Source of the DNA: Candidatus Vampirococcus lugosii
GTDB lineage: Bacteria > Patescibacteriota > Gracilibacteria > Absconditabacterales > Absconditicoccaceae
Direction of reading: 5' to 3'
Assembly: GCF_018420025.1 (NCBI RefSeq)
Contig: NZ_JAEDAM010000054.1
Coordinates: forward strand, 1-6,975
DNA length: 6,975 nt
Below, in pieces: positions 1 through 6,975 of this stretch. The translations under genes and the position numbers were made by a program. Within the stretch, counting starts at the first letter, position 1, and every line of letters begins with the position of its first letter. The notes beneath the pieces are model-generated. The model worked only from the letters and a program-made list of their open reading frames with translations. It was not told the origin of the DNA and searched no databases.

Positions 1-111
1 AACATAAAAGACAATTATCCAAAGTATGTAATAAGTATGGATGATAGTTTTGGTGAAAGTTATGACTGAATAGAAAATATAAATATAATTGATTGGTTAA
101 TTAAGTTTTAA
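1..111 (+). CDS. 3' end of a P-loop ATPase of the AAA_14/DUF4143 (COG1373-like) type; the 5' part lies outside the window
   Basis: Frame +1 is open from nt 1 to TAA 109-111. With TGA=Gly it translates as NIKDNYPKYVISMDDSFGESYDGIENINIIDWLIKF. From memory this resembles the conserved C-terminal tail of DUF4143 ATPases (..NxPKxVxxxD....GIxxxNIxDxLL). Only 36 aa are visible, so the family call is tentative. Confidence 0.5.
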
Positions 112-131
112 TTTATAAATATTATTAAAAA

Positions 132-1703
132 ATGGCAGAGAAAGAAATATTATATTCTATAAATTGAGAGAAAATATATCCATTGAACACTAATTTAAAA
201 GAATGAAATAAATCTAAAAAATGATTTAATAGATGAGTAATTGTAAAAATTATTGATATGCTTGTAGCAAATAAAGTTAAAGAACAAAAAATTCAAAATT
301 TTCTTTATGATTTTTCTTCAGATGCAGAAACCAAGGAAGAAAAAAGAACTTATAAAGAAAAATTTTCTTTTAATTTGCCTAATAGTGGTAGTTTTAAGAG
401 TGTACTAAAAAAAATTGAAAAACATGATATTTATAATTTAGCTTGAATTTACGAACTTATTTTAGATTGAGAAAAAATTATTGATGAAGAAAAGCCAAAA
501 CAAGAAAAACAAATAAAACAAATTATAGATGAAATAAAAGAAAAACAAACTATACAAACAGAGCAGTTATACAATATATTGATGTCTTTGACTGTAAATA
601 ACTTTTTGATATTTTCATGACCTTCATGAACTTGAAAAACATCAATAGTAGATACACTTTCTGATAGTTTAGGTGGTAAATTTCATAAACTTCCTGTTAG
701 AGCAAACTTTAGTGATGAAAGTGCTATATTGGGGTACTGGAATCCACTACTTTCAAGATATGAATGAACTGAAACTTTAAGATTTTTGATTGAAGTTTAC
801 AAAAGTGAAAGAGAAATAAATTTTTTACTTCTTGATGAGATGAATCTTTCAAAAATTGAAAACTATTTTTCTACCTTTTTGTCTGAGATAGATAGACTGA
901 AAGAAAAATGAGAGACTACAATAACACTTTTTGAAACAAATATTACAAATAAAAAACAATATGAAAATATAAAATACTTTTTAGAAAATTATTTTAGTGA
1001 AGATTTTGAAAATAATATTTATTTTAGTTGAAACTTTTTAGAATATTGAAAAAAAGAAACAGATGAAAATTGAAACTTTGAAACAGAAGAAATACAATCT
1101 ATAAAAGTTTTTATAAAATTAAAAAATAATCTAAAAATCATCTGAACTATAAACGAAGATGAGACAACAAATAGCTTATCAAATAAAGTACTTGATAGAA
1201 GTCAGTTCGTAACATTTGAAGTATGAAACTTGTTTGGTGAGGATGAAAATGAAAATGAAGAATTAAATTTAAAGTATAAAAATTATTTTGATTCATTTTA
1301 TGAAGAAAAGATAAAATTAAATCAAATTGAAAATTATTTTAAAAAATTAGATAAATATAAAGAAATAAAAACAATTATAACAGCAATAAACGAGCAAATA
1401 AAAAACATAAGCATAAATGAAAGTGTATGATATAGAGCAATAGAAGAAATCATGACTTATATAAAAAATTATTGTAATTATAATTGAGAAGATAATATTG
1501 AAAATCTTACTAAAAAACTTACTGAAAGTTTGGATAACCAGATAAGTCAAAAAGTCCTTACAAAACTTAAAACTTTTAGTTTGATAGGAGAAGAGCAAAA
1601 AAAGGCTTTTAAAGAGATAGGGAATATATTAGAGAAATTTGAAAATAAAAAATTAGAAAAATCTATAAAGTTTTATAATCATTTAAAAAGTAATATGTTA
1701 TAG
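132..1703 (+). CDS. McrB-like AAA+ NTPase (AAA_5/COG1401-type motor subunit of a restriction-like system), 523 aa with TGA=Gly
   Basis: ATG 132 directly follows an in-frame TAA at 126-128, and the frame runs to TAG 1701-1703 with 18 in-frame TGA codons. Three motifs support the call: Walker A LIFSGPSGTGKTS (606-644), Walker B region FLLLDEMNLSKIENYFSTFLS (822-884), and GTINEDETTNSLSNKVLDRSQFVTFE (1143-1220). Together they match the DEMNL...YF and GT.N.DET...S.KVLDR signature I recognise in McrB-family AAA+ proteins. Track ORFs 258..446 and 1230..1430 are fragments of this frame. Confidence 0.85.
618..644 (+). other. Walker A / P-loop (GPSGTGKTS); all three glycines are encoded by TGA
   Basis: The codons are tga cct tca tga act tga aaa aca tca. 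Only TGA=Gly restores the GxxGxGK[ST] consensus. Confidence 0.9.
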
Positions 1704-1704
1704 G

Positions 1705-2499
1705 ATGAAAAAGTATTTTGAAGAAATAGAAATTTTGGAATGAGTCTATTGAAACATTTATTTCAAAAACAATTTACATAAATTTAAAACCTTAATTCAA
1801 AGGGATTGGAGTAAGTATTTTGATATAAAGTTTTTTGATTGAAAAAAAGAATTATTTTAAGATAACAATTGAGAAGAAGAGAAAGATAACAAAAATAATA
1901 AAGATAATAAAGATGAAAAAACTAAAGAAAAGGGAATATTTTTAGAAAAACTTCTTTTAAAATTAAATAATAAATTTAAATCTATACATGAATATTTTGA
2001 AATAGATGAAAAAACTAAAAATAAACCTTTAAATGAAAGAATTTATATTTTTAATGAAAGTAAAAAAGAAGAACTAAAAATATTTATAAGAAATTTTTAC
2101 AATAATTACTTACAGGAACATTATATAAAAAACAAATTTGATATAGATTTTATTAAAGAAAACAATTTTACTTTACAAAAACATTTCAATGTAAAAGAAT
2201 TCTTTTCAGACCATGAAAGTTTATTTGATAAAAATAATGATTTTGAAAAAGCAAAAAATAAAAGAATATATCTTTGAGTAAAAGATGAAAATAAAAAAGA
2301 ATTAAATACTTTAGAAGATCAGATAAATAATTTAAATGAAGAAAATAAATTTTATATAAAAGTAAATTTAAAAGATTTGGAAAATACAAAGATATGATGA
2401 GAAAAAATTGAATTAAATTGAACAACAAAATATGAAAATATATTTATATTAGAAAGATGAGATTATATTTATCATACTAAAAATAAAAATAATGGATAA
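1705..2499 (+). pseudogene. Unknown protein (264 sense codons) interrupted by a single in-frame TAA at 1858-1860; possibly a pseudogene, a sequencing error, or a 51-aa peptide plus a start-less downstream ORF
   Basis: ATG 1705 lies one nt after the upstream TAG (context TAGGATG). Frame +1 stays open to TAA 2497-2499 apart from the TAA at codon 52. The 212 codons after that TAA contain no TAA/TAG, and no in-frame ATG/GTG/TTG occurs before TTG 2377. The 3' end overlaps the next start (ATGGATAA at 2492-2499). The sequence just after the stop is a D/N/K/E-rich low-complexity stretch. I recognised no family motif. Confidence 0.55.
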
Positions 2500-4744
2500 A
2501 CAAATTTTGGAAAATTTAAAAGAATTTTTACCTCAAGATGTAGTAAATGAAATATTAATTTCTAATGGTTTTGAGCTTGAGTGAGAGCATAAAGGAACAG
2601 AAACAAGAACAGAAACAAAAACAGGAACAGGAACAGGAACAGGAACAGGAACAGGAACAGGAACAGGAACAGGAACAGGAACAGGAACAGGAACAAAAAC
2701 AGGAACAAAAACAGGAACAGAAACAGGAACAGAAACAGGAACAGAAACAAAAACAGAAACAAAAACAGGAACAGGAACAGGAACAAAAACAGGAACAAAA
2801 ACAGGAACAAAAACAGAAACAAAAACAGAAACAAAAACAGGAACAGGAACAGAAGCAGAAACAACAGAATGAAGTAAAAATAATAAACAAACAATTTTTG
2901 AATTTATAAATGAAAAACAGTTAGATAATTTTAAAAAACTAAATGTAGAAACTTGAACAAAAAATATCAGATATTGATTTGAAACTCTTAATACAGCTCC
3001 TTTTGAAAATAATAATTTGGAATATTTTATATTTCCAGTGTCTATAAGTAGTATACAAAAATTATTAGAACTATTAGCAGAGATAAGAGATTTGTTTAAG
3101 TGAAATGATTCCAGAAATTATATTCCAAATTTTTTAATGGAAGGAGAATGAGATTGAGCAGATATATTTATAGATAGAAAGATAAATTATCTTACATATT
3201 TGATAATAAATTTTTTAAATAACAATTGAAAACAACTTTTGCCTCATTATATAAACTATAATAATTTCAAACTTGATAAAATAAATCCTTCTTTATTAAA
3301 AAACGAAAATTTCTATAAAAATTTTATGGTGAAAGAAACTTCATATATACAAGATATGCAAGAAACTATAAACAACCCAAAAACTCAATTTTTGAAATAT
3401 TATCTTTTACATTTTATAAAAAATATTGAACCAGAATATGCAAATAAGATAAAATTTTTACTTCAAACATACTTAAAAGATGTAAAGTCACAAAAAACAA
3501 ATGTAAATATATCCCAATATAAAGACCTAAAAACAATTTTTGCACTTATGGAATCTATAATAGAATGAGATATTGCTACCAAAAGACAACTTTTAGATAA
3601 GATAAATGATCTATATGAGATATGGTTATTTCAAAAGATGGTTTATTATTTTAATCAGAACAAAGAAGAAAACAAAGATAAGAAAGAAAAGATAGAAGAA
3701 AAAATAAAGAAAAGATTAGAAGAAAAAATGTATTATACTATACATATTGATGAATTGAATAGATATTTATGAGAAAAAAATAAAGTTAACTTTAAAGACT
3801 GAATAGTAAGCAAAGAAAAAAAAATATATTTAAATGAAAAAATTATTTATTTAAAAAAAGAAGATGATTTTAAACAATTTGAAGTTGATAAATCATTAGA
3901 TGGTATTTTAGATCAAATAGAAGATATTAATACTAAAAATAACATTAAAAATAACATTATTAAACTTAATTTTAATGCAACTGAAATAAAAAGAAAACTA
4001 AATGATGAAATTTTAAAAGATTATAATAAAAAAGAATGAAAAATTGATTGAATAATTAACAAAATAAATAAAAATGAAAAGATTAAAAAAATTAAAGAAT
4101 TAGAAGAAAATCTTACCATCTGAAAATGATTTATAAAAGAAGATGATCCTGATTTTGATTTACTTGCAACAATAGATTTAGATAAACTTTCAAATCAATT
4201 TCAATGATATAATTTTAGTATATCACTTTGAGGACATAATAAAAATCTACAAAATAAAAATAAATGTATACTTGACCCAGTTTTATGTGATTTGATCTCA
4301 TCAAAAATAGAAGAACTTCAAGATATTTTAAAAAGTGATAAGATAACACCTGATTTTATTATTAAAATTAAAGGCTGAAAAAATATAATTTGATCAATAT
4401 TTTTGGATGCAAAATTTTCAAAATATCCTTTTTTCTTAAAAAATCAAAATAAAAAAGAAAATATGGATTATGCTCCAGTTTTTAAATATTATAAAGAACT
4501 TGCCAAAAATTTTTCTACTTCTGATATCGATAATAATTTCCCATACAAAGTTATTATACTTTTCCCTTGAGATAAGGAAGCTCAAGAATTAAAAGAATTA
4601 AACAATTATTTTCAAAGATATACAAATATAGTAGCTGTTCCTATGATGGTTTGAAATGAAAATATTTTAAATAAAAATTTAGATTATTTAGAAAAGTATA
4701 TAAAAGAATTTACAAGAGAAGTTATAAGAAAAAGAAAAGGTTAG
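2492..4744 (+). CDS. McrC/DUF524-like PD-(D/E)xK nuclease-domain protein, 750 aa, with an N-terminal (G/E/K)-T dipeptide repeat and a K/E/N-rich central region
   Basis: ATG 2492 overlaps the upstream stop by 8 nt. I checked frame +2 codon by codon, and it is open to TAG 4742-4744 with TGA read as sense. The C-terminal region reads ...KITPDFIIKIKGGKNIIGSIFLDAKFSKY..., with PD at 4349-4354 and D-A-K at 4406-4414. That is a classic PD...(D/E)xK core as in McrC (PD......DxKYK). An upstream helix, LYEIWLFQKM (3611-3640), resembles the lYE.W motif that precedes the core in DUF524-type nucleases. The gene sits downstream of a McrB-like gene. Track ORF 3239..3568 is an internal fragment whose 'M' is really a TTG Leu. 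Confidence 0.8.
2594..2863 (+). repeat. Tandem hexanucleotide repeat, 45 units of [GG/GA/AA]AACA, lying in frame inside the CDS
   Basis: My unit count is GGAACA x24, AAAACA x10, GAAACA x9, AGAACA x1 and GAAGCA x1. These include 12 consecutive perfect GGAACA units at 2624-2695. In the gene's frame they encode GT x24, KT x10, ET x9, RT x1 and EA x1, a total of 90 aa. Confidence 0.97.
4349..4414 (+). other. Putative PD-(D/E)xK nuclease catalytic core (PD ... DAK)
   Basis: The codons are cct gat (P-D) at 4349-4354 and gat gca aaa (D-A-K) at 4406-4414, separated by 17 residues (FIIKIKGGKNIIGSIFL). A hydrophobic beta-strand-like stretch precedes each acidic residue. Confidence 0.65.
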
Positions 4745-4745
4745 G

Positions 4746-6485
4746 TTACTTTGAAGTTCATAATATATCAGTAACAAATTTTGAAGAATCTTTTAAAAAT
4801 TCATTTCAATTATAAGTAACAATTTTTTCGGTCTTTTCTCAATATATAAATTCATTTATATTTTTACCTCATATTTTAAGATCAAAAGATACATAATTAT
4901 TTGTCATAAGAAAAGATATAGCATACAAAGATATTGTCAATGTTCCTAAAAATCTAAATCAGTTATGCCATCTAATATATTTAGATTCACTATAAAAATT
5001 TTTTCTTAAGAATTTATTTCATATATATAGTAAAATAATTCCAAAAGAAAGTATAAAAGAGAAAAAATATCATATAATAACCAAACTAATAACAAATACA
5101 GAATTATTGAATATATTTATTTTTTTTAATTTTTCTTGTTTATTGTCTTCAAATGCTTCATATTCTTCAAAGAAGGTATAAACTTTTATATATTCATAAT
5201 AATTTTCACATAATCCAAAGTATAACAATAATTTTATATAATCTATCTTATCTTTTTTTACACTTAAGTTATCATATAAAAATCTTAAAATATGAGTTTT
5301 TATAATATCAGCAAATATACTTTCTTGAAGTTTAATAATTAAAGATTTATAATTTTCTAAAGTATTTAAAAACTCTATAGATTGTTCTTTACTTTTAGAT
5401 ATATCTGAGATATCTTCAATATTTGATTTATAGTCAATTTTTACTTCAAGCCAATCTTGTTTTTTGCTATATTTGTTTTGTGTAAAATGCTTTACCCAGT
5501 TAGAAAACCTTATATCAAAGTTTTTTTCTTTTATACTATTTTTAAAATATCACCATAGATATCATTTTATTTGTCATTCTTTTTTTTCTGCAATATCTGA
5601 AACCTTTATATAATTTTCAAAATTAAATTCATAATTATATATAATATTTTCAATTTCTTTTCTTTCTTCTAATTTTTCTATTTGAGATTTTTTATATTCA
5701 TTTGTTTCATTGAAAGATAAAAGATTTATAATATCATTCATTTTTGAATAACTTATATCTTTGTTTATATATTTATCTATATCAAATAACTCAAAAATTT
5801 TAGCCAAAAACTCATATTTTTTACTGTAATTATTTTCATTTTTGAAATAAAAAGAAATAAGGTTGTTACAGAAAGATGATTCATTTGAATATCAAGATAA
5901 ATTTTTTAATTTTGTTCATTTTTTAAAACTTTCATCAATTAATATATCTCATTTTAAATTTGAAGTATTAAAATTTTTTGATTTTATTACTTGAATAATT
6001 AATTTTAGAAATTTCTGATAATTATCATTTTGAGTTAAATCATAAAAATCACCTTTTATCTCGCTTCTTTCATTTAAATAAGAAATAACTTTTTGTATGA
6101 AATGTTTAAAATCTTTATCAAATTTTGAGTAAATTTCTATGTGTTTTTCAGGATCAAAATATTTTGATTTCTTAGCATAATCAACGATTATTTCTTTGTA
6201 AATATTACTTATTCATATATCATATAAAAAAGAGTGTTTATTGTCATCAATATCAAAGTTATTAAAGCTTTTATTTAAAAAGATTGATATTTCTTTTAGG
6301 TAATTATTGATTTTTCAAAATATTTTTTTTACTCATATTAGAAAAGTGATTGGATTTTTTTTATTTATCAGTTCATCCAAATCACTTTTCAAGTATGTAA
6401 ATTTATTCAAATAATGTTCAATATTTTCAATTTCTTTTTTATTGTTTTCTTTTTCTATTTGTTTTTCAATATTTTTTTCACTCAT
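4746..6485 (-). CDS. Hypothetical protein, 579 aa: a large soluble N-terminal region (~460 aa) followed by C-terminal transmembrane segments
   Basis: The minus-strand ATG is at 6485-6483 and the TAA stop at 4748-4746. I verified the frame line by line, and it holds with 18 TGA codons read as Gly. Track ORF 5574..5807 is an internal fragment. The hydrophobic stretches are SVFVISLVIIGYFFSFILSFGIILLYIG and GFRFLGTLTISLYAISFLMT. I recognised no family signature. Confidence 0.8.
4902..5102 (-). other. Two predicted membrane-spanning hydrophobic segments of the minus-strand protein (5019-5102 and 4902-4961)
   Basis: There are 28- and 20-residue uncharged hydrophobic runs separated by a basic loop (NKFLRKNFYSESKYIRWHN). 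They were judged by eye only, and I ran no TM predictor. Confidence 0.6.
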
Positions 6486-6517
6486 GATTTTTATTTTATT
6501 TTTGTAAATATACTTAT

Positions 6518-6545
6518 ATGATATTTTTTATTTAATTTTTGTCAA
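6518..6545 (-). promoter_or_regulatory. Sigma70-like promoter candidate for the minus-strand gene
   Basis: On the minus strand, TTGACA (plus coordinates 6545-6540) is followed by a 16-nt spacer and then TATCAT (6523-6518). The -10 element lies about 32 nt upstream of ATG 6485. The AT-rich background makes chance -10 matches common, but an exact TTGACA is more informative. Confidence 0.35.
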
Positions 6546-6654
6546 TTTTTTGAATATAAAAACCTCAGCAATAAAATAGATAAAATAAATAAAATCTTTA
6601 TAAACAAATAATATGTTGGAAGGTGTTAGAGAATATAAATTTTAATTAAATTTT

Positions 6655-6713
6655 GTATTATAAGAAAAAATATTTGCATTTTATAAGATAATAAGTATTT
6701 TAAGAAAAAATAT
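6655..6713. repeat. Pair of 19-nt direct repeats (GTATT[A/T]TAAGAAAAAATAT) spaced 40 nt apart
   Basis: Copies lie at 6655-6673 and 6695-6713. They share a 13-nt perfect core, TAAGAAAAAATAT (6661-6673 and 6701-6713), and differ at one position in the 19 nt. They sit in the intergenic region upstream of the small HTH-like ORF. Confidence 0.6.
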
Positions 6714-6753
6714 CTATAAATAACAACAATATATTGATGTGTAATATAGAATA

Positions 6754-6885
6754 GTGTTATTTACACAAAAAGATATAATAGATAAAATTTTTATTTGTGA
6801 TCAATGGTCTGTTGCGAGTTTGGCAAATAAATATAATATAAGTAGACCGACAATGTATAAAGTGCAGAAGATTAATAATTTTTAA
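6754..6885 (+). CDS. Small helix-turn-helix-like ORF (43 aa from GTG 6754); possibly a remnant of a recombinase or transposase HTH
   Basis: The frame is open from 6745 to TAA 6883-6885 and translates as (V/M)LFTQKDIIDKIFICDQWSVASLANKYNISRPTMYKVQKINNF. The S.A.LA.KY.ISR.T.YK pattern is typical of resolvase or transposase-type HTH motifs. The stretch is locally more GC-rich than its flanks. It has no ATG start and is very short. Confidence 0.35.
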   Translation: MLFTQKDIIDKIFICDQWSVASLANKYNISRPTMYKVQKINNF

Positions 6886-6975
6886 CTTGAAAATAATTAT
6901 AATATGTATATATATAAATATAATATTTTATTAATTAAATTGAAATTATTTAAATGAGTGATTTTTTGAAAAAAG

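What the first reader, a model, noticed from the sequence alone, without database searches (positions are those of the whole stretch)
2594..2863. 45-unit hexanucleotide microsatellite encoding a 90-aa (Gly/Glu/Lys)-Thr dipeptide repeat inside the nuclease gene
The array is perfectly phased, with 45 units of NNAACA. All variation is confined to the first two bases (GG/GA/AA, plus one AG and one GAAGCA), which amounts to a series of G-to-A changes. Twelve identical GGAACA units lie at 2624-2695. In the gene's frame the array separates a 34-aa N-terminal module (MDKQILENLKEFLPQDVVNEILISNGFELEGEHK) from the rest of the protein. All six frames are open across the array, which explains the three spurious track ORFs. 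Because the unit is 6 nt, slipped-strand changes would alter linker length without breaking the frame. That makes it a possible contingency locus tuning the geometry of a defense nuclease. It also resembles the Thr-Gly repeat of Drosophila period, which is unusual in a bacterial enzyme.
Basis: seen in the sequence. Interest (0 to 1): 0.65.

Follow-up and report, generated by a model that had tools for sequence, protein, structure and literature searches.

The report
Repeat-encoded flexible tether in defence protein
A 270-base run of 45 six-letter DNA repeats is real and is translated into a floppy Gly/Glu/Lys-Thr spacer near the start of a probable DNA-cutting defence protein of an uncultured bacterium that reads TGA as glycine; relatives carry other repeats or unrelated floppy sequence at the same spot, so it is a fast-evolving linker and not an on/off genetic switch.

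Summary
Positions 2594-2863 hold 45 in-phase hexamers (24 GGAACA, 10 AAAACA, 9 GAAACA, 1 AGAACA, 1 GAAGCA), in frame with the ATG at 2492.

The window uses genetic code 25 (TGA = Gly). Under it the array lies in a 750-aa gene, g3 (2492-4744).

Seven full-length relatives share one layout: a conserved ~26-aa N-terminal module, a hypervariable disordered segment, then a conserved body with an invariant PD...D-x-K motif. The array fills the hypervariable segment. Five of the seven members have in-frame tandem repeats there (6, 18, 21, 42 or 93 bp). Two others also show X-Thr units: L003 has 17 RAAACT units and L009 has a TKTKT remnant. One member has a sigma-70 region 2 domain, and a 47%-GC member has non-repetitive acidic sequence.

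Segment length is 79-108 aa in six of the seven. The best reading is a slippage-generated flexible tether of loosely constrained length.

g3 is the partner of an McrB/MoxR-like AAA+ NTPase (PADLOC PDC-M26A). One orthologous operon sits next to hsdS and hsdM. "Nuclease" is plausible from the motif and context but is not shown. A contingency-switch role is not supported.

This is ordinary in kind, and interest is modest.

The parts
2594..2863 (+). Hexanucleotide microsatellite, 45 x RRAACA, encoding (G/E/K/R)-T x 44 plus one E-A
   Evidence: TRF and the unit table. It is in frame with the ATG at 2492. The RNA has no secondary structure, MFE 0 kcal/mol.
2624..2695 (+). Perfect run of 12 GGAACA units (Gly-Thr x 12). 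It is probably the youngest and most slippage-prone part.
   Evidence: The array holds 24 of the 32 GGA codons in the four ORFs.
2492..2569 (+). Conserved N-terminal module (26 aa, MDKQILENLKEFLPQDVVNEILISNG)
   Evidence: It aligns with MDxxIxxxL.(E/Q)FLPxxV..EI...NG in L001, L002, L003, L008 and L009. There is no Pfam match.
2570..2893 (+). Whole hypervariable, compositionally disordered segment (residues 27-134, 108 aa). The array makes up 90 aa of it.
   Evidence: Family alignment. On the Uversky hydropathy/charge criterion it falls on the disordered side; 2% of residues are hydrophobic and net charge is 0.
2492..4744 (+). Gene g3 (750 aa under code 25), the repeat-bearing protein
   Evidence: ORF under tables 4 and 25. 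Homologs are P0001, P0002 and P0003. Start and stop codons were verified.
2492..2499 (+). ATGGATAA: the g3 start codon overlaps the g2 stop codon, suggesting translational coupling
   Evidence: The same overlap occurs in L001 and L003, and as ATGGATAG in L002.
4346..4435 (+). TPDFIIKIK...IFLDAKFSKYPFF: the PD...D-x-K motif, a candidate nuclease active site
   Evidence: It is invariant in all seven full-length family members. In the marginal AF2 model it lies on a beta-hairpin. RmuC matches weakly over this hairpin, E 0.09.
132..1703 (+). Gene g1: AAA+ NTPase of the McrB/MoxR/AAA_5 kind, the operon partner
   Evidence: The Walker A motif GPSGTGKT appears only under code 25. Pfam AAA 9.6e-7. PADLOC PDC-M26A 3.6e-37; the ortholog scores 1.2e-43.
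1705..2499 (+). Gene g2: conserved operon member of unknown function, interrupted here by an in-frame TAA at 1858-1860
   Evidence: Orthologs in L001, L002 and L009 are uninterrupted.
4746..6485 (-). Gene g4: conserved convergent neighbour with C-terminal hydrophobic segments
   Evidence: Synteny in L001, L002, L004 and L008. No family hits.

Best explanation
The array is a genuine, translated, in-frame microsatellite. It encodes about 90 residues of (Gly/Glu/Lys)-Thr. These form most of a ~108-residue intrinsically disordered tether between a conserved ~26-residue N-terminal module and the conserved body of g3. g3 is the putative PD-(D/E)xK nuclease partner of an McrB/MoxR-like AAA+ NTPase, in a defence-type operon of a code-25 (Gracilibacteria/Absconditabacteria-type) bacterium.

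Shown: the array, its frame, the genetic code, the conserved module-tether-body layout, and the complete turnover of tether sequence among relatives.

Inferred: the tether is an ancient feature of the family. Its presence and approximate length (about 80-110 aa) matter, but its sequence does not. In the very AT-rich lineages it is repeatedly rebuilt and resized by replication slippage or unequal recombination of frame-preserving units. The window's 45-unit array, with its perfect 12-unit core, is the largest such expansion seen. Repeat number is probably polymorphic. Each step changes the floppy chain by only two residues, so the array acts as a tolerant spacer and not as a switch.
For: - **Array and frame:**
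- **Code 25:**
- **Upstream start:** the N-module is conserved and the stop/start overlap is conserved.
- **Same segment in relatives:** L003 has 17.3 RAAACT hexamers encoding (K/E)T plus a 93-bp duplication. L009 has TKTKT plus an 18-bp unit x 5.9 at 98% identity. L002 has a 42-bp unit x 3.9. L005 has 18-bp and 21-bp repeats. L001 has a Sigma70_r2 domain. L008, at 47% GC, has non-repetitive acidic/Pro-rich sequence.
- **Repeat hotspot:** 4 of the 5 strongest tandem arrays in 38.6 kb of related loci lie in this segment.
- **Disorder:** all the segments tested fall on the disordered side of the charge-hydropathy boundary.
- **Length:** the segment is 79-108 aa in 6 of 7 members.
- **Homogenisation:** the Thr codon is ACA in all 44 Thr codons here and ACT throughout L003, while ACA:ACT is 37:35 outside the array. 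So each array is homogenised internally while the peptide type is kept.
- **Block duplication:** the excess of lag-2 unit identity shows duplication of two-unit blocks.
- **No RNA role:** the array RNA has no structure.
- **Precedent:** an in-frame 9-mer (PTD) repeat is described in a Gracilibacterium (PMC6851277).
Against: - No reads were available, so neither length polymorphism within the population nor the exact copy number is verified.
- Disorder is inferred from composition only. The full-length AF2 model was uninformative (pLDDT 32).
- The clustering of tether lengths at 79-108 aa rests on 7 sequences, and for L003 it depends on which copy of a duplicated motif is taken as the boundary.
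- The function of the N-terminal module is unknown.
- The nuclease assignment of g3 is unproven.
- The window's operon shows possible decay: an in-frame TAA in g2 and a shorter g1. The expansion could therefore reflect relaxed constraint and not a maintained spacer.
Confidence: 0.66

Rival explanations
1. Functional ruler or contingency locus. Repeat number is selected to vary and tunes the reach or geometry of the nuclease relative to the AAA+ motor. This would parallel the 12-bp TAEL repeat, which changes the spacer recognised by EcoR124I and EcoR124II.
For: The perfect 12-unit run should be hypermutable in length. The gene lies in a defence-type operon. Tether length clusters at 79-108 aa in 6 of 7 relatives, so length is not free. 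There is a documented precedent for in-frame repeats changing a restriction enzyme's specificity (PMC3874165).
Against: The unit preserves the frame, so there is no on/off switching. The tract is compositionally disordered, unlike the rigid coiled coil that carries TAEL, so one unit (2 aa in ~108) should have almost no geometric effect. Relatives achieve similar lengths with unrelated, and in one case non-repetitive, sequence. No population data exist.
Confidence: 0.12
2. Junk expansion in a decaying operon. The system is being lost in this lineage, and the array grew because constraint on g3 is relaxed.
For: g2 has an in-frame TAA at 1858-1860 that is absent from its orthologs. The window's g1 lacks the ~150-200-aa N-terminal region present in L002, L003 and L009. 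The window has the largest array in the family.
Against: g3 is intact over 750 codons in a 20%-GC genome, where TAA/TAG stops arise easily. All invariant family residues, including PD...D-x-K, are kept. The tether length (108 aa) is at the top of the family range but close to it. Orthologs with intact operons also carry repeats in this segment.
Confidence: 0.1
3. Bait or decoy region. The hypervariable segment is a sensor surface under diversifying selection. It would present mimics, such as acidic DNA-like tracts or a sigma-factor domain, that are recognised by phage proteins and so trigger the nuclease.
For: One ortholog carries a bona fide Sigma70_r2 domain in this segment, and about 1200 sigma factors hit that part of the profile. 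Most other segments are strongly acidic, with net charge -14 to -19. Sequence turnover is extreme.
Against: The window's tract is net neutral and L003's is basic, so there is no common chemistry. Low-complexity repeats arising by slippage need no selection to explain them. There is no experimental or comparative test.
Confidence: 0.07
4. Assembly artefact or non-coding repeat. Either the array is not in the genome as shown, or it lies upstream of the true start codon.
For: The 70-nt exact self-overlap makes the copy number in the perfect run ambiguous for short k-mers. No reads were available.
Against: Interspersed variant units anchor most of the array. Independent assemblies from other samples carry hexamer or other in-frame arrays at the same position. 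The N-module upstream of the array is conserved at protein level in six of seven relatives, and the start overlaps the g2 stop.
Confidence: 0.04

Closest known systems
Ser-Asp (SD) dipeptide repeat regions of staphylococcal Clf/Sdr proteins
   Same: A long dipeptide repeat is encoded by an in-frame short tandem DNA repeat. It acts as a spacer between functional parts of a protein, and its length varies between lineages.
   Different: SD repeats are in secreted, wall-anchored adhesins and are glycosylated. This tract is in a cytoplasmic-looking protein of a defence operon, has a 6-nt unit and a different dipeptide, and no strain-level length data exist.
PTD tripeptide repeat (9-mer units) in a Gracilibacterium BD1-5 gene (PMC6851277)
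   Same: It occurs in the same kind of organism (code 25). It is an in-frame short tandem repeat with interspersed unit variants, and the peptide is conserved across nucleotide variants. Its copy number was also hard to fix from short reads.
   Different: That protein is predicted to be extracellular or adhesive, and its variants are synonymous. Here the variants change the first residue (G/E/K) and the protein is an intracellular partner of an AAA+ NTPase.
TAEL 12-bp repeat in HsdS of EcoR124I/EcoR124II (PMC3874165)
   Same: An in-frame repeat sits inside a restriction/defence protein, and the copy number alters spacing between functional parts.
   Different: TAEL lies in a rigid helical coiled coil with 2-3 copies, and each copy shifts DNA recognition by 1 bp. 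Here 45 copies form a floppy tract, and no specificity role is evident.
McrBC-type (type IV) restriction systems, and PADLOC candidate system PDC-M26
   Same: An AAA+ NTPase of the McrB/MoxR/AAA_5 kind is encoded next to a larger partner with a C-terminal PD...D-x-K motif. An ortholog of the NTPase has an MrcB_N-like N-domain (sub-threshold). g1 matches PDC-M26A strongly.
   Different: g3 matches no McrC, PDC-M26 or other nuclease model. There are extra conserved genes (g2, g4). Some orthologous operons have two AAA+ paralogs. A tethered N-terminal module is not, to my knowledge, a feature described for McrC.
Thr-Gly repeat of Drosophila PERIOD
   Same: It is a Thr-Gly dipeptide run encoded by a length-polymorphic hexanucleotide repeat.
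   Different: There is no homology, and no PAS or other shared domains. The organism and protein context are different. The resemblance is compositional only.

Membership tests
In-frame coding microsatellite (size-variable protein repeat) | Head-to-tail tandem copies of a short unit | tested here: met
   45 contiguous hexamers, 2594-2863
In-frame coding microsatellite (size-variable protein repeat) | Unit length is a multiple of 3 and the array lies inside a translated ORF | tested here: met
   The 6-nt unit is in frame with the ATG at 2492. The ORF is supported by conserved protein sequence on both sides of the array.
In-frame coding microsatellite (size-variable protein repeat) | Copy number differs between strains or within a population | not testable with these tools
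   No reads and no same-species contigs were found. Between distant orthologs the X-Thr unit count is 45, 17 and about 2.5.
Contingency locus (phase-variable simple sequence repeat) | Repeat changes switch expression on/off, by a frameshift or by altering promoter spacing | tested here: not met
   The unit is 6 nt and lies inside the ORF, so any gain or loss keeps the frame.
Contingency locus (phase-variable simple sequence repeat) | High-frequency reversible length change in a population | not testable with these tools
   This needs reads or culture. It is only inferred from the 12-unit perfect run.
Intrinsically disordered inter-domain linker | Low hydrophobicity and low-complexity composition | tested here: met
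   2% hydrophobic residues. The segment falls on the disordered side of the Uversky boundary, as do the segments of the four relatives tested.
Intrinsically disordered inter-domain linker | Presence conserved while sequence is not | tested here: met
   All 7 full-length members have a segment here with unrelated sequences. Its length is 79-108 aa in 6 of 7.
Intrinsically disordered inter-domain linker | Lack of predicted or observed structure | tested here: inconclusive
   The AF2 model of P0001 had low pLDDT everywhere (32), so it cannot discriminate. The window protein itself was not accepted by the prediction tool.
PD-(D/E)xK nuclease superfamily | Conserved D ... (D/E)-x-K catalytic motif on a beta-hairpin | tested here: met
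   TPD(F/Y)I ... D(A/S/T)K is invariant in 7 of 7 members. In the model the motif lies on strands 56-62 and 65-73.
PD-(D/E)xK nuclease superfamily | Restriction-endonuclease-like fold, or a significant profile match | tested here: inconclusive
   No Pfam or PDB sequence match. The model scores pLDDT 55. The best Foldseek E-value is 0.089, although the top hits are mostly REase-fold nucleases.
McrBC-type restriction system | McrB-like AAA+ NTPase with an N-terminal DNA-reading domain | tested here: inconclusive
   g1: AAA 9.6e-7; AAA_5 2.5e-4, just below the cut-off. L002 ortholog: MrcB_N 3.7e-4, below the cut-off. The window's g1 lacks that region.
McrBC-type restriction system | Partner protein belongs to the McrC family | tested here: not met
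   No match to the Pfam McrBC or PDDEXK models, NCBIfam or PADLOC for g3 or its orthologs.
PADLOC candidate system PDC-M26 | PDC-M26A protein present | tested here: met
   g1 3.6e-37; L002 ortholog 1.2e-43
PADLOC candidate system PDC-M26 | Other PDC-M26 components present | tested here: not met
   g2, g3, g4 and their orthologs give no PADLOC hit at E <= 1.
PERIOD-type Thr-Gly repeat protein | Homology to PER (PAS domains) around the repeat | tested here: not met
   Pfam finds no PAS or PER domains in g3.

The most novel reading that the evidence does not exclude
The N-terminal module plus an ~80-110-residue disordered tether is a functional device of a new, very rare family of McrC-like effectors. 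The module docks on, or is threaded by, the partner AAA+ ring. Tether length is under stabilising selection. In AT-rich code-25 bacteria, replication slippage of in-frame repeats is how that length is kept or adjusted, so repeat-number variants differ measurably in restriction activity. A stronger version is that the segment is a swappable bait, as the sigma-70 region 2 insertion in one ortholog might suggest.
Probability: 0.12. Interest if true: 0.6.

Novelty: new member of a known kind. Interest (0 to 1): 0.3.

Why it matters
For the scan, the main practical point is that this window, and any like it, must be read with genetic code 25. The table-11 gene track is wrong throughout, and the three ORFs over the array are artefacts.

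Biologically, the array is a clean example of how extremely AT-rich, recoded bacteria build and resize disordered linkers by slippage. The family comparison shows a linker whose sequence is fully replaceable while its presence, and roughly its length, persist.

The host protein belongs to a very small, uncharacterised family: about six clusters among 1.84 billion representatives. It is tied to an McrB-like NTPase and, in one genome, to type I R-M genes. That family may deserve study as a defence system. The repeat itself does not open a new question.

Tried and rejected
- **Exact look-up of the window's proteins** (code 25, code 4 and the table-11 ORFs) in the 15-billion-protein collection: none present. 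No same-species variants could be compared.
- **The search for related loci with the family alignment** in genome contigs and viral contigs: nothing.
- **My own degenerate FLDAKFSKYPFF pattern:** nothing in genome contigs or viral contigs. It found one metagenome contig, L003.
- **Code-25 or code-4 translations of the window:** I used the database homologs instead, which carry Trp at TGA positions.
- **AF2 of full-length P0001:** useless, pLDDT 32.
- **C-terminal domain model:** marginal, pLDDT 55. Its fold search gave no significant hit.
- **Profile searches of g3 or its C-terminal domain** against PDB, Pfam, NCBIfam and PADLOC: no credible hit.
- **N-terminal module as a sigma-factor N-terminus:** some sigma hits aligned from profile positions 2-10. 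I rejected this as untestable, because the matches are driven by regions 1.2/2 and the module is too short.
- **RNA-structure role for the array:** rejected, MFE 0.
- **Rfam, tRNA and phage-database scans:** negative.
- **Literature search for PDC-M26:** nothing.
Full report
**1. The observation**

TRF finds one dominant array at 2593-2863 (period 6, 45.2 copies). Cutting 2594-2863 into hexamers gives exactly 45 units: 24 GGAACA, 10 AAAACA, 9 GAAACA, 1 AGAACA and 1 GAAGCA. Positions 3, 5 and 6 of the unit never vary, and position 4 varies once. Twelve identical GGAACA units occupy 2624-2695. All six frames are open across the array. The three table-11 ORFs over it are in the wrong frames.

Two things can be added:
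- The order of unit types is non-random. Units two apart are identical 28 times, against 15.5 +/- 2.6 in shuffles (0 of 5000), so two-unit (12-nt) blocks were duplicated as well as single units.
- The longest exact self-overlap is 70 nt, so the count inside the perfect run is only as reliable as the assembly's k-mer or read length.

**2. Genetic code and gene**

The window is 20% GC. Under table 11 it breaks into short ORFs. With TGA as a sense codon it resolves into four long genes. TGA means Gly here, not Trp:
- The P-loop of gene 1 reads SGPSGTGKTS only with Gly.
- In ungapped orthologous columns, TGA is opposite GGN 28 times and opposite TGG twice, although GGN codons are rare.

This is NCBI code 25, defined for candidate division SR1 and Gracilibacteria. 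A related contig (L004) carries SecY and a GyrA/ParC-like gene next to the locus, so the setting is chromosomal. There is no phage match.

The array lies in g3 (2492-4744, 750 aa), in frame, after 34 codons.

**3. Does translation really run through the array?**

Yes, on comparative evidence.
- Seven full-length family members were assembled: the window plus L001, L002, L003, L005, L008 and L009.
- Six of them begin with the same ~26-residue module (MDxxIxxxL.(E/Q)FLPxxV..EI...NG). One of these is L008, from a 47%-GC genome. In the most distant AT-rich member, L005, the module is recognisable but shifted.
- The ATG overlaps the stop codon of the upstream gene g2 as ATGGATAA in the window, L001 and L003, and as ATGGATAG in L002.
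- The region between the array and the next ATG at 3137 is conserved protein sequence (IF(E/D)FI ... IRYG ... YFIFPVSIS).

**4. What occupies this position in relatives**

After the module, every member has a segment with no sequence conservation. The conserved body follows.

| Locus | Content of the variable segment |
|---|---|
| Window | 6 bp x 45, (G/E/K)T |
| L003 | 6 bp x 17.3, unit RAAACT, (K/E)T at 94% identity, followed by a 93-bp duplication |
| L009 | TKTKT, then 18 bp x 5.9 (NSEQEE) at 98% identity |
| L002 | 42 bp x 3.9 and 54 bp x 2.1, acidic |
| L005 | 18 bp x 2.8 and 21 bp x 3.4 |
| L001 | Acidic stretch plus a Sigma70_r2 domain (8.8e-7, above Pfam's cut-off) |
| L008 | ~91 aa of non-repetitive acidic/Pro-rich sequence |

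Other points on this segment:
- Four of the five highest-scoring tandem arrays in all 38.6 kb of these loci fall in this one segment.
- The window, L001, L002, L003 and L005 segments were tested on the charge-hydropathy criterion, and all lie on the disordered side. Net charge ranges from +8 to -19, so no particular chemistry is conserved.
- Segment length is 108, 93, ~80, 98, 91 and 79 aa in six members, and 165 aa in L001 with its inserted domain. The L003 value is taken to its second, body-adjacent IFDIL copy, as aligned. The number of sequences is small, but it suggests that length is loosely held while sequence is free.

**5. History of the X-Thr array**

X-Thr units occur in the window, L003 and L009. 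These are not sister lineages on a distance tree, which gives L008 | L005 | L003 | (L002, (W, (L001, L009))). Either a short K/E-Thr array is ancestral to the AT-rich clade and was replaced in L001 and L002, or it arose more than once. The data do not decide between these.

The Thr codon is ACA in all 44 Thr codons of the window's array and ACT throughout L003's array. Outside the array the window uses ACA and ACT about equally, 37:35. So each array is homogenised internally by slippage (concerted evolution), while the Thr residue is kept across lineages.

The relatives have only K/E units. GGA is a rare Gly codon outside the array (8 GGA against 64 TGA). The perfect run is GGAACA. Together these suggest that GGAACA is the derived, most recently expanded unit.

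**6. What the protein is**

g3 and its relatives match nothing in Pfam, NCBIfam, PADLOC or the PDB by sequence. An exhaustive profile search of 1.84 billion representatives found only about six related clusters, several of them table-11 fragments. The other ~1200 hits are sigma factors matching L001's insertion.

The case for a nuclease has three parts:
- The motif TPD(F/Y)I...(I/L/F/M)D(A/S/T)KFSKY is invariant in all seven members, including the 47%-GC one.
- A marginal AF2 model of the C-terminal domain (pLDDT 55, pTM 0.50) places the motif on a beta-hairpin, followed by an alpha/beta/alpha/beta/alpha pattern.
- The Foldseek list has no significant hit (best E 0.089), but it is led by Bse634I, BstEII, Mus81, Nt.BspD6I and BsoBI, all restriction-fold nucleases.

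The case for defence also has three parts:
- g1 is an AAA+ NTPase matching PADLOC PDC-M26A (3.6e-37; its ortholog scores 1.2e-43) with AAA/AAA_5/MoxR-type features.
- The L002 ortholog has a sub-threshold MrcB_N domain.
- In L009 the operon follows hsdS (9.5e-16) and hsdM (7.6e-59).

I therefore describe the system as McrBC-like in how it probably works, but I do not file g3 as a member of the McrC family.

**7. Mechanism**

Most likely (about two chances in three), the array encodes a flexible, hydrophilic tether that lets the small N-terminal module operate at a distance from the body. The tether's presence and approximate length matter. Its sequence does not. Slippage of frame-preserving units is how AT-rich lineages generate and resize it.

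The array RNA is completely unstructured (MFE 0), so an RNA-level role is unlikely.

The contingency-locus idea fails on its defining feature, because there is no frame or promoter effect. Its milder form, length tuning, is weakened because one unit changes a ~108-residue floppy chain by two residues. In EcoR124I/II, by contrast, the TAEL repeat sits in a rigid coiled coil (PMC3874165).

A decay scenario cannot be excluded. g2 carries an in-frame TAA at 1858-1860, and g1 is N-terminally shorter than its orthologs.

**8. Novelty and score**

In-frame short tandem repeats that encode spacer-like low-complexity tracts are well known. Examples are the SD repeats of staphylococcal adhesins (from my own knowledge) and a PTD 9-mer repeat in a Gracilibacterium (PMC6851277). 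This array is a new member of that kind, in an unusual host (code 25) and an uncharacterised protein family.

Interest is about 0.3. The most interesting residue is the family-level module-tether-body layout and the sigma-domain insertion in one ortholog, not the repeat itself.

Noticed in passing
window 1-6975: The whole window uses genetic code 25 (TGA = Gly). The four ORFs contain 61-64 in-frame TGA codons against 6 TGG. A table-11 gene track is fragmented and partly spurious everywhere, not only over the array.
   Followed up: yes
window 1858-1860 (inside g2, 1705-2499): There is an in-frame TAA stop inside g2, within g2's own N/K/D-rich low-complexity stretch. Orthologs in L001, L002 and L009 are uninterrupted. 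It could be a pseudogene, a polymorphism or a sequence error.
   Followed up: partly
window 132-1703 (g1) compared with L002 366-2513, L003 3543-5543 and L009 5097-6896: The window's AAA+ protein (523 aa) lacks the ~150-200-aa N-terminal region of its orthologs. In L002 that region gives a sub-threshold MrcB_N (type IV restriction DNA-reader) match. The N-regions differ between orthologs.
   Followed up: partly
L001 734-3094 (protein residues ~85-185): The g3 ortholog carries a Sigma70_r2 domain (8.8e-7, above Pfam's cut-off), plus a weak region 1.2 match, exactly where the window has the repeat. About 1200 sigma factors hit this part of the family profile. A sigma-factor domain inside a putative defence nuclease is unexplained.
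   Followed up: partly
L009 1-6896 and L008 430-5305: In these loci the operon has two tandem paralogs of the g1-like AAA+ gene. The first is fused to a methyltransferase-like N-terminal region. In L009 the cluster directly follows hsdS and hsdM, and no hsdR is seen on the 10.9-kb contig. The AAA+/g3 module may stand in for the restriction subunit.
   Followed up: partly
window 4746-6485 (-), g4: A convergent 579-aa gene with C-terminal hydrophobic segments is syntenic in L001, L002, L004 and L008 but matches no family. It is probably part of the same system.
   Followed up: partly
L008 6113-8566: This 47%-GC contig still has 10 in-frame TGA codons in its g3 ortholog, so TGA recoding here is not confined to very AT-rich genomes. 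Its tether is non-repetitive.
   Followed up: partly
window 2594-2863 compared with the rest of the ORFs: The array contains 24 GGA codons and no TGA, while outside it Gly is encoded 64 times by TGA and only 8 times by GGA. The tract is therefore a long run of a rare Gly codon. This might slow translation between the N-module and the body.
   Followed up: no
window ~6740-6880 (+): A short ORF (...DQWSVASLANKYNISRPTMYKVQKINNF) gives only weak helix-turn-helix Pfam matches (E 0.02-0.05). It has no clear start codon.
   Followed up: partly
window 1-108 (+) and L002 315-365: The 3' end of an upstream gene (...SFGESYDGIENINIIDWLIKF) has a recognisable remnant in the same position in L002, so synteny extends upstream of the operon. 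It gave no Pfam match.
   Followed up: partly
L004 7621-7665: The N-terminus of a GyrA/ParC-like protein carries a 9-bp x 5 in-frame repeat (EQP/EQT). Short coding repeats at protein termini therefore seem common in these genomes.
   Followed up: no
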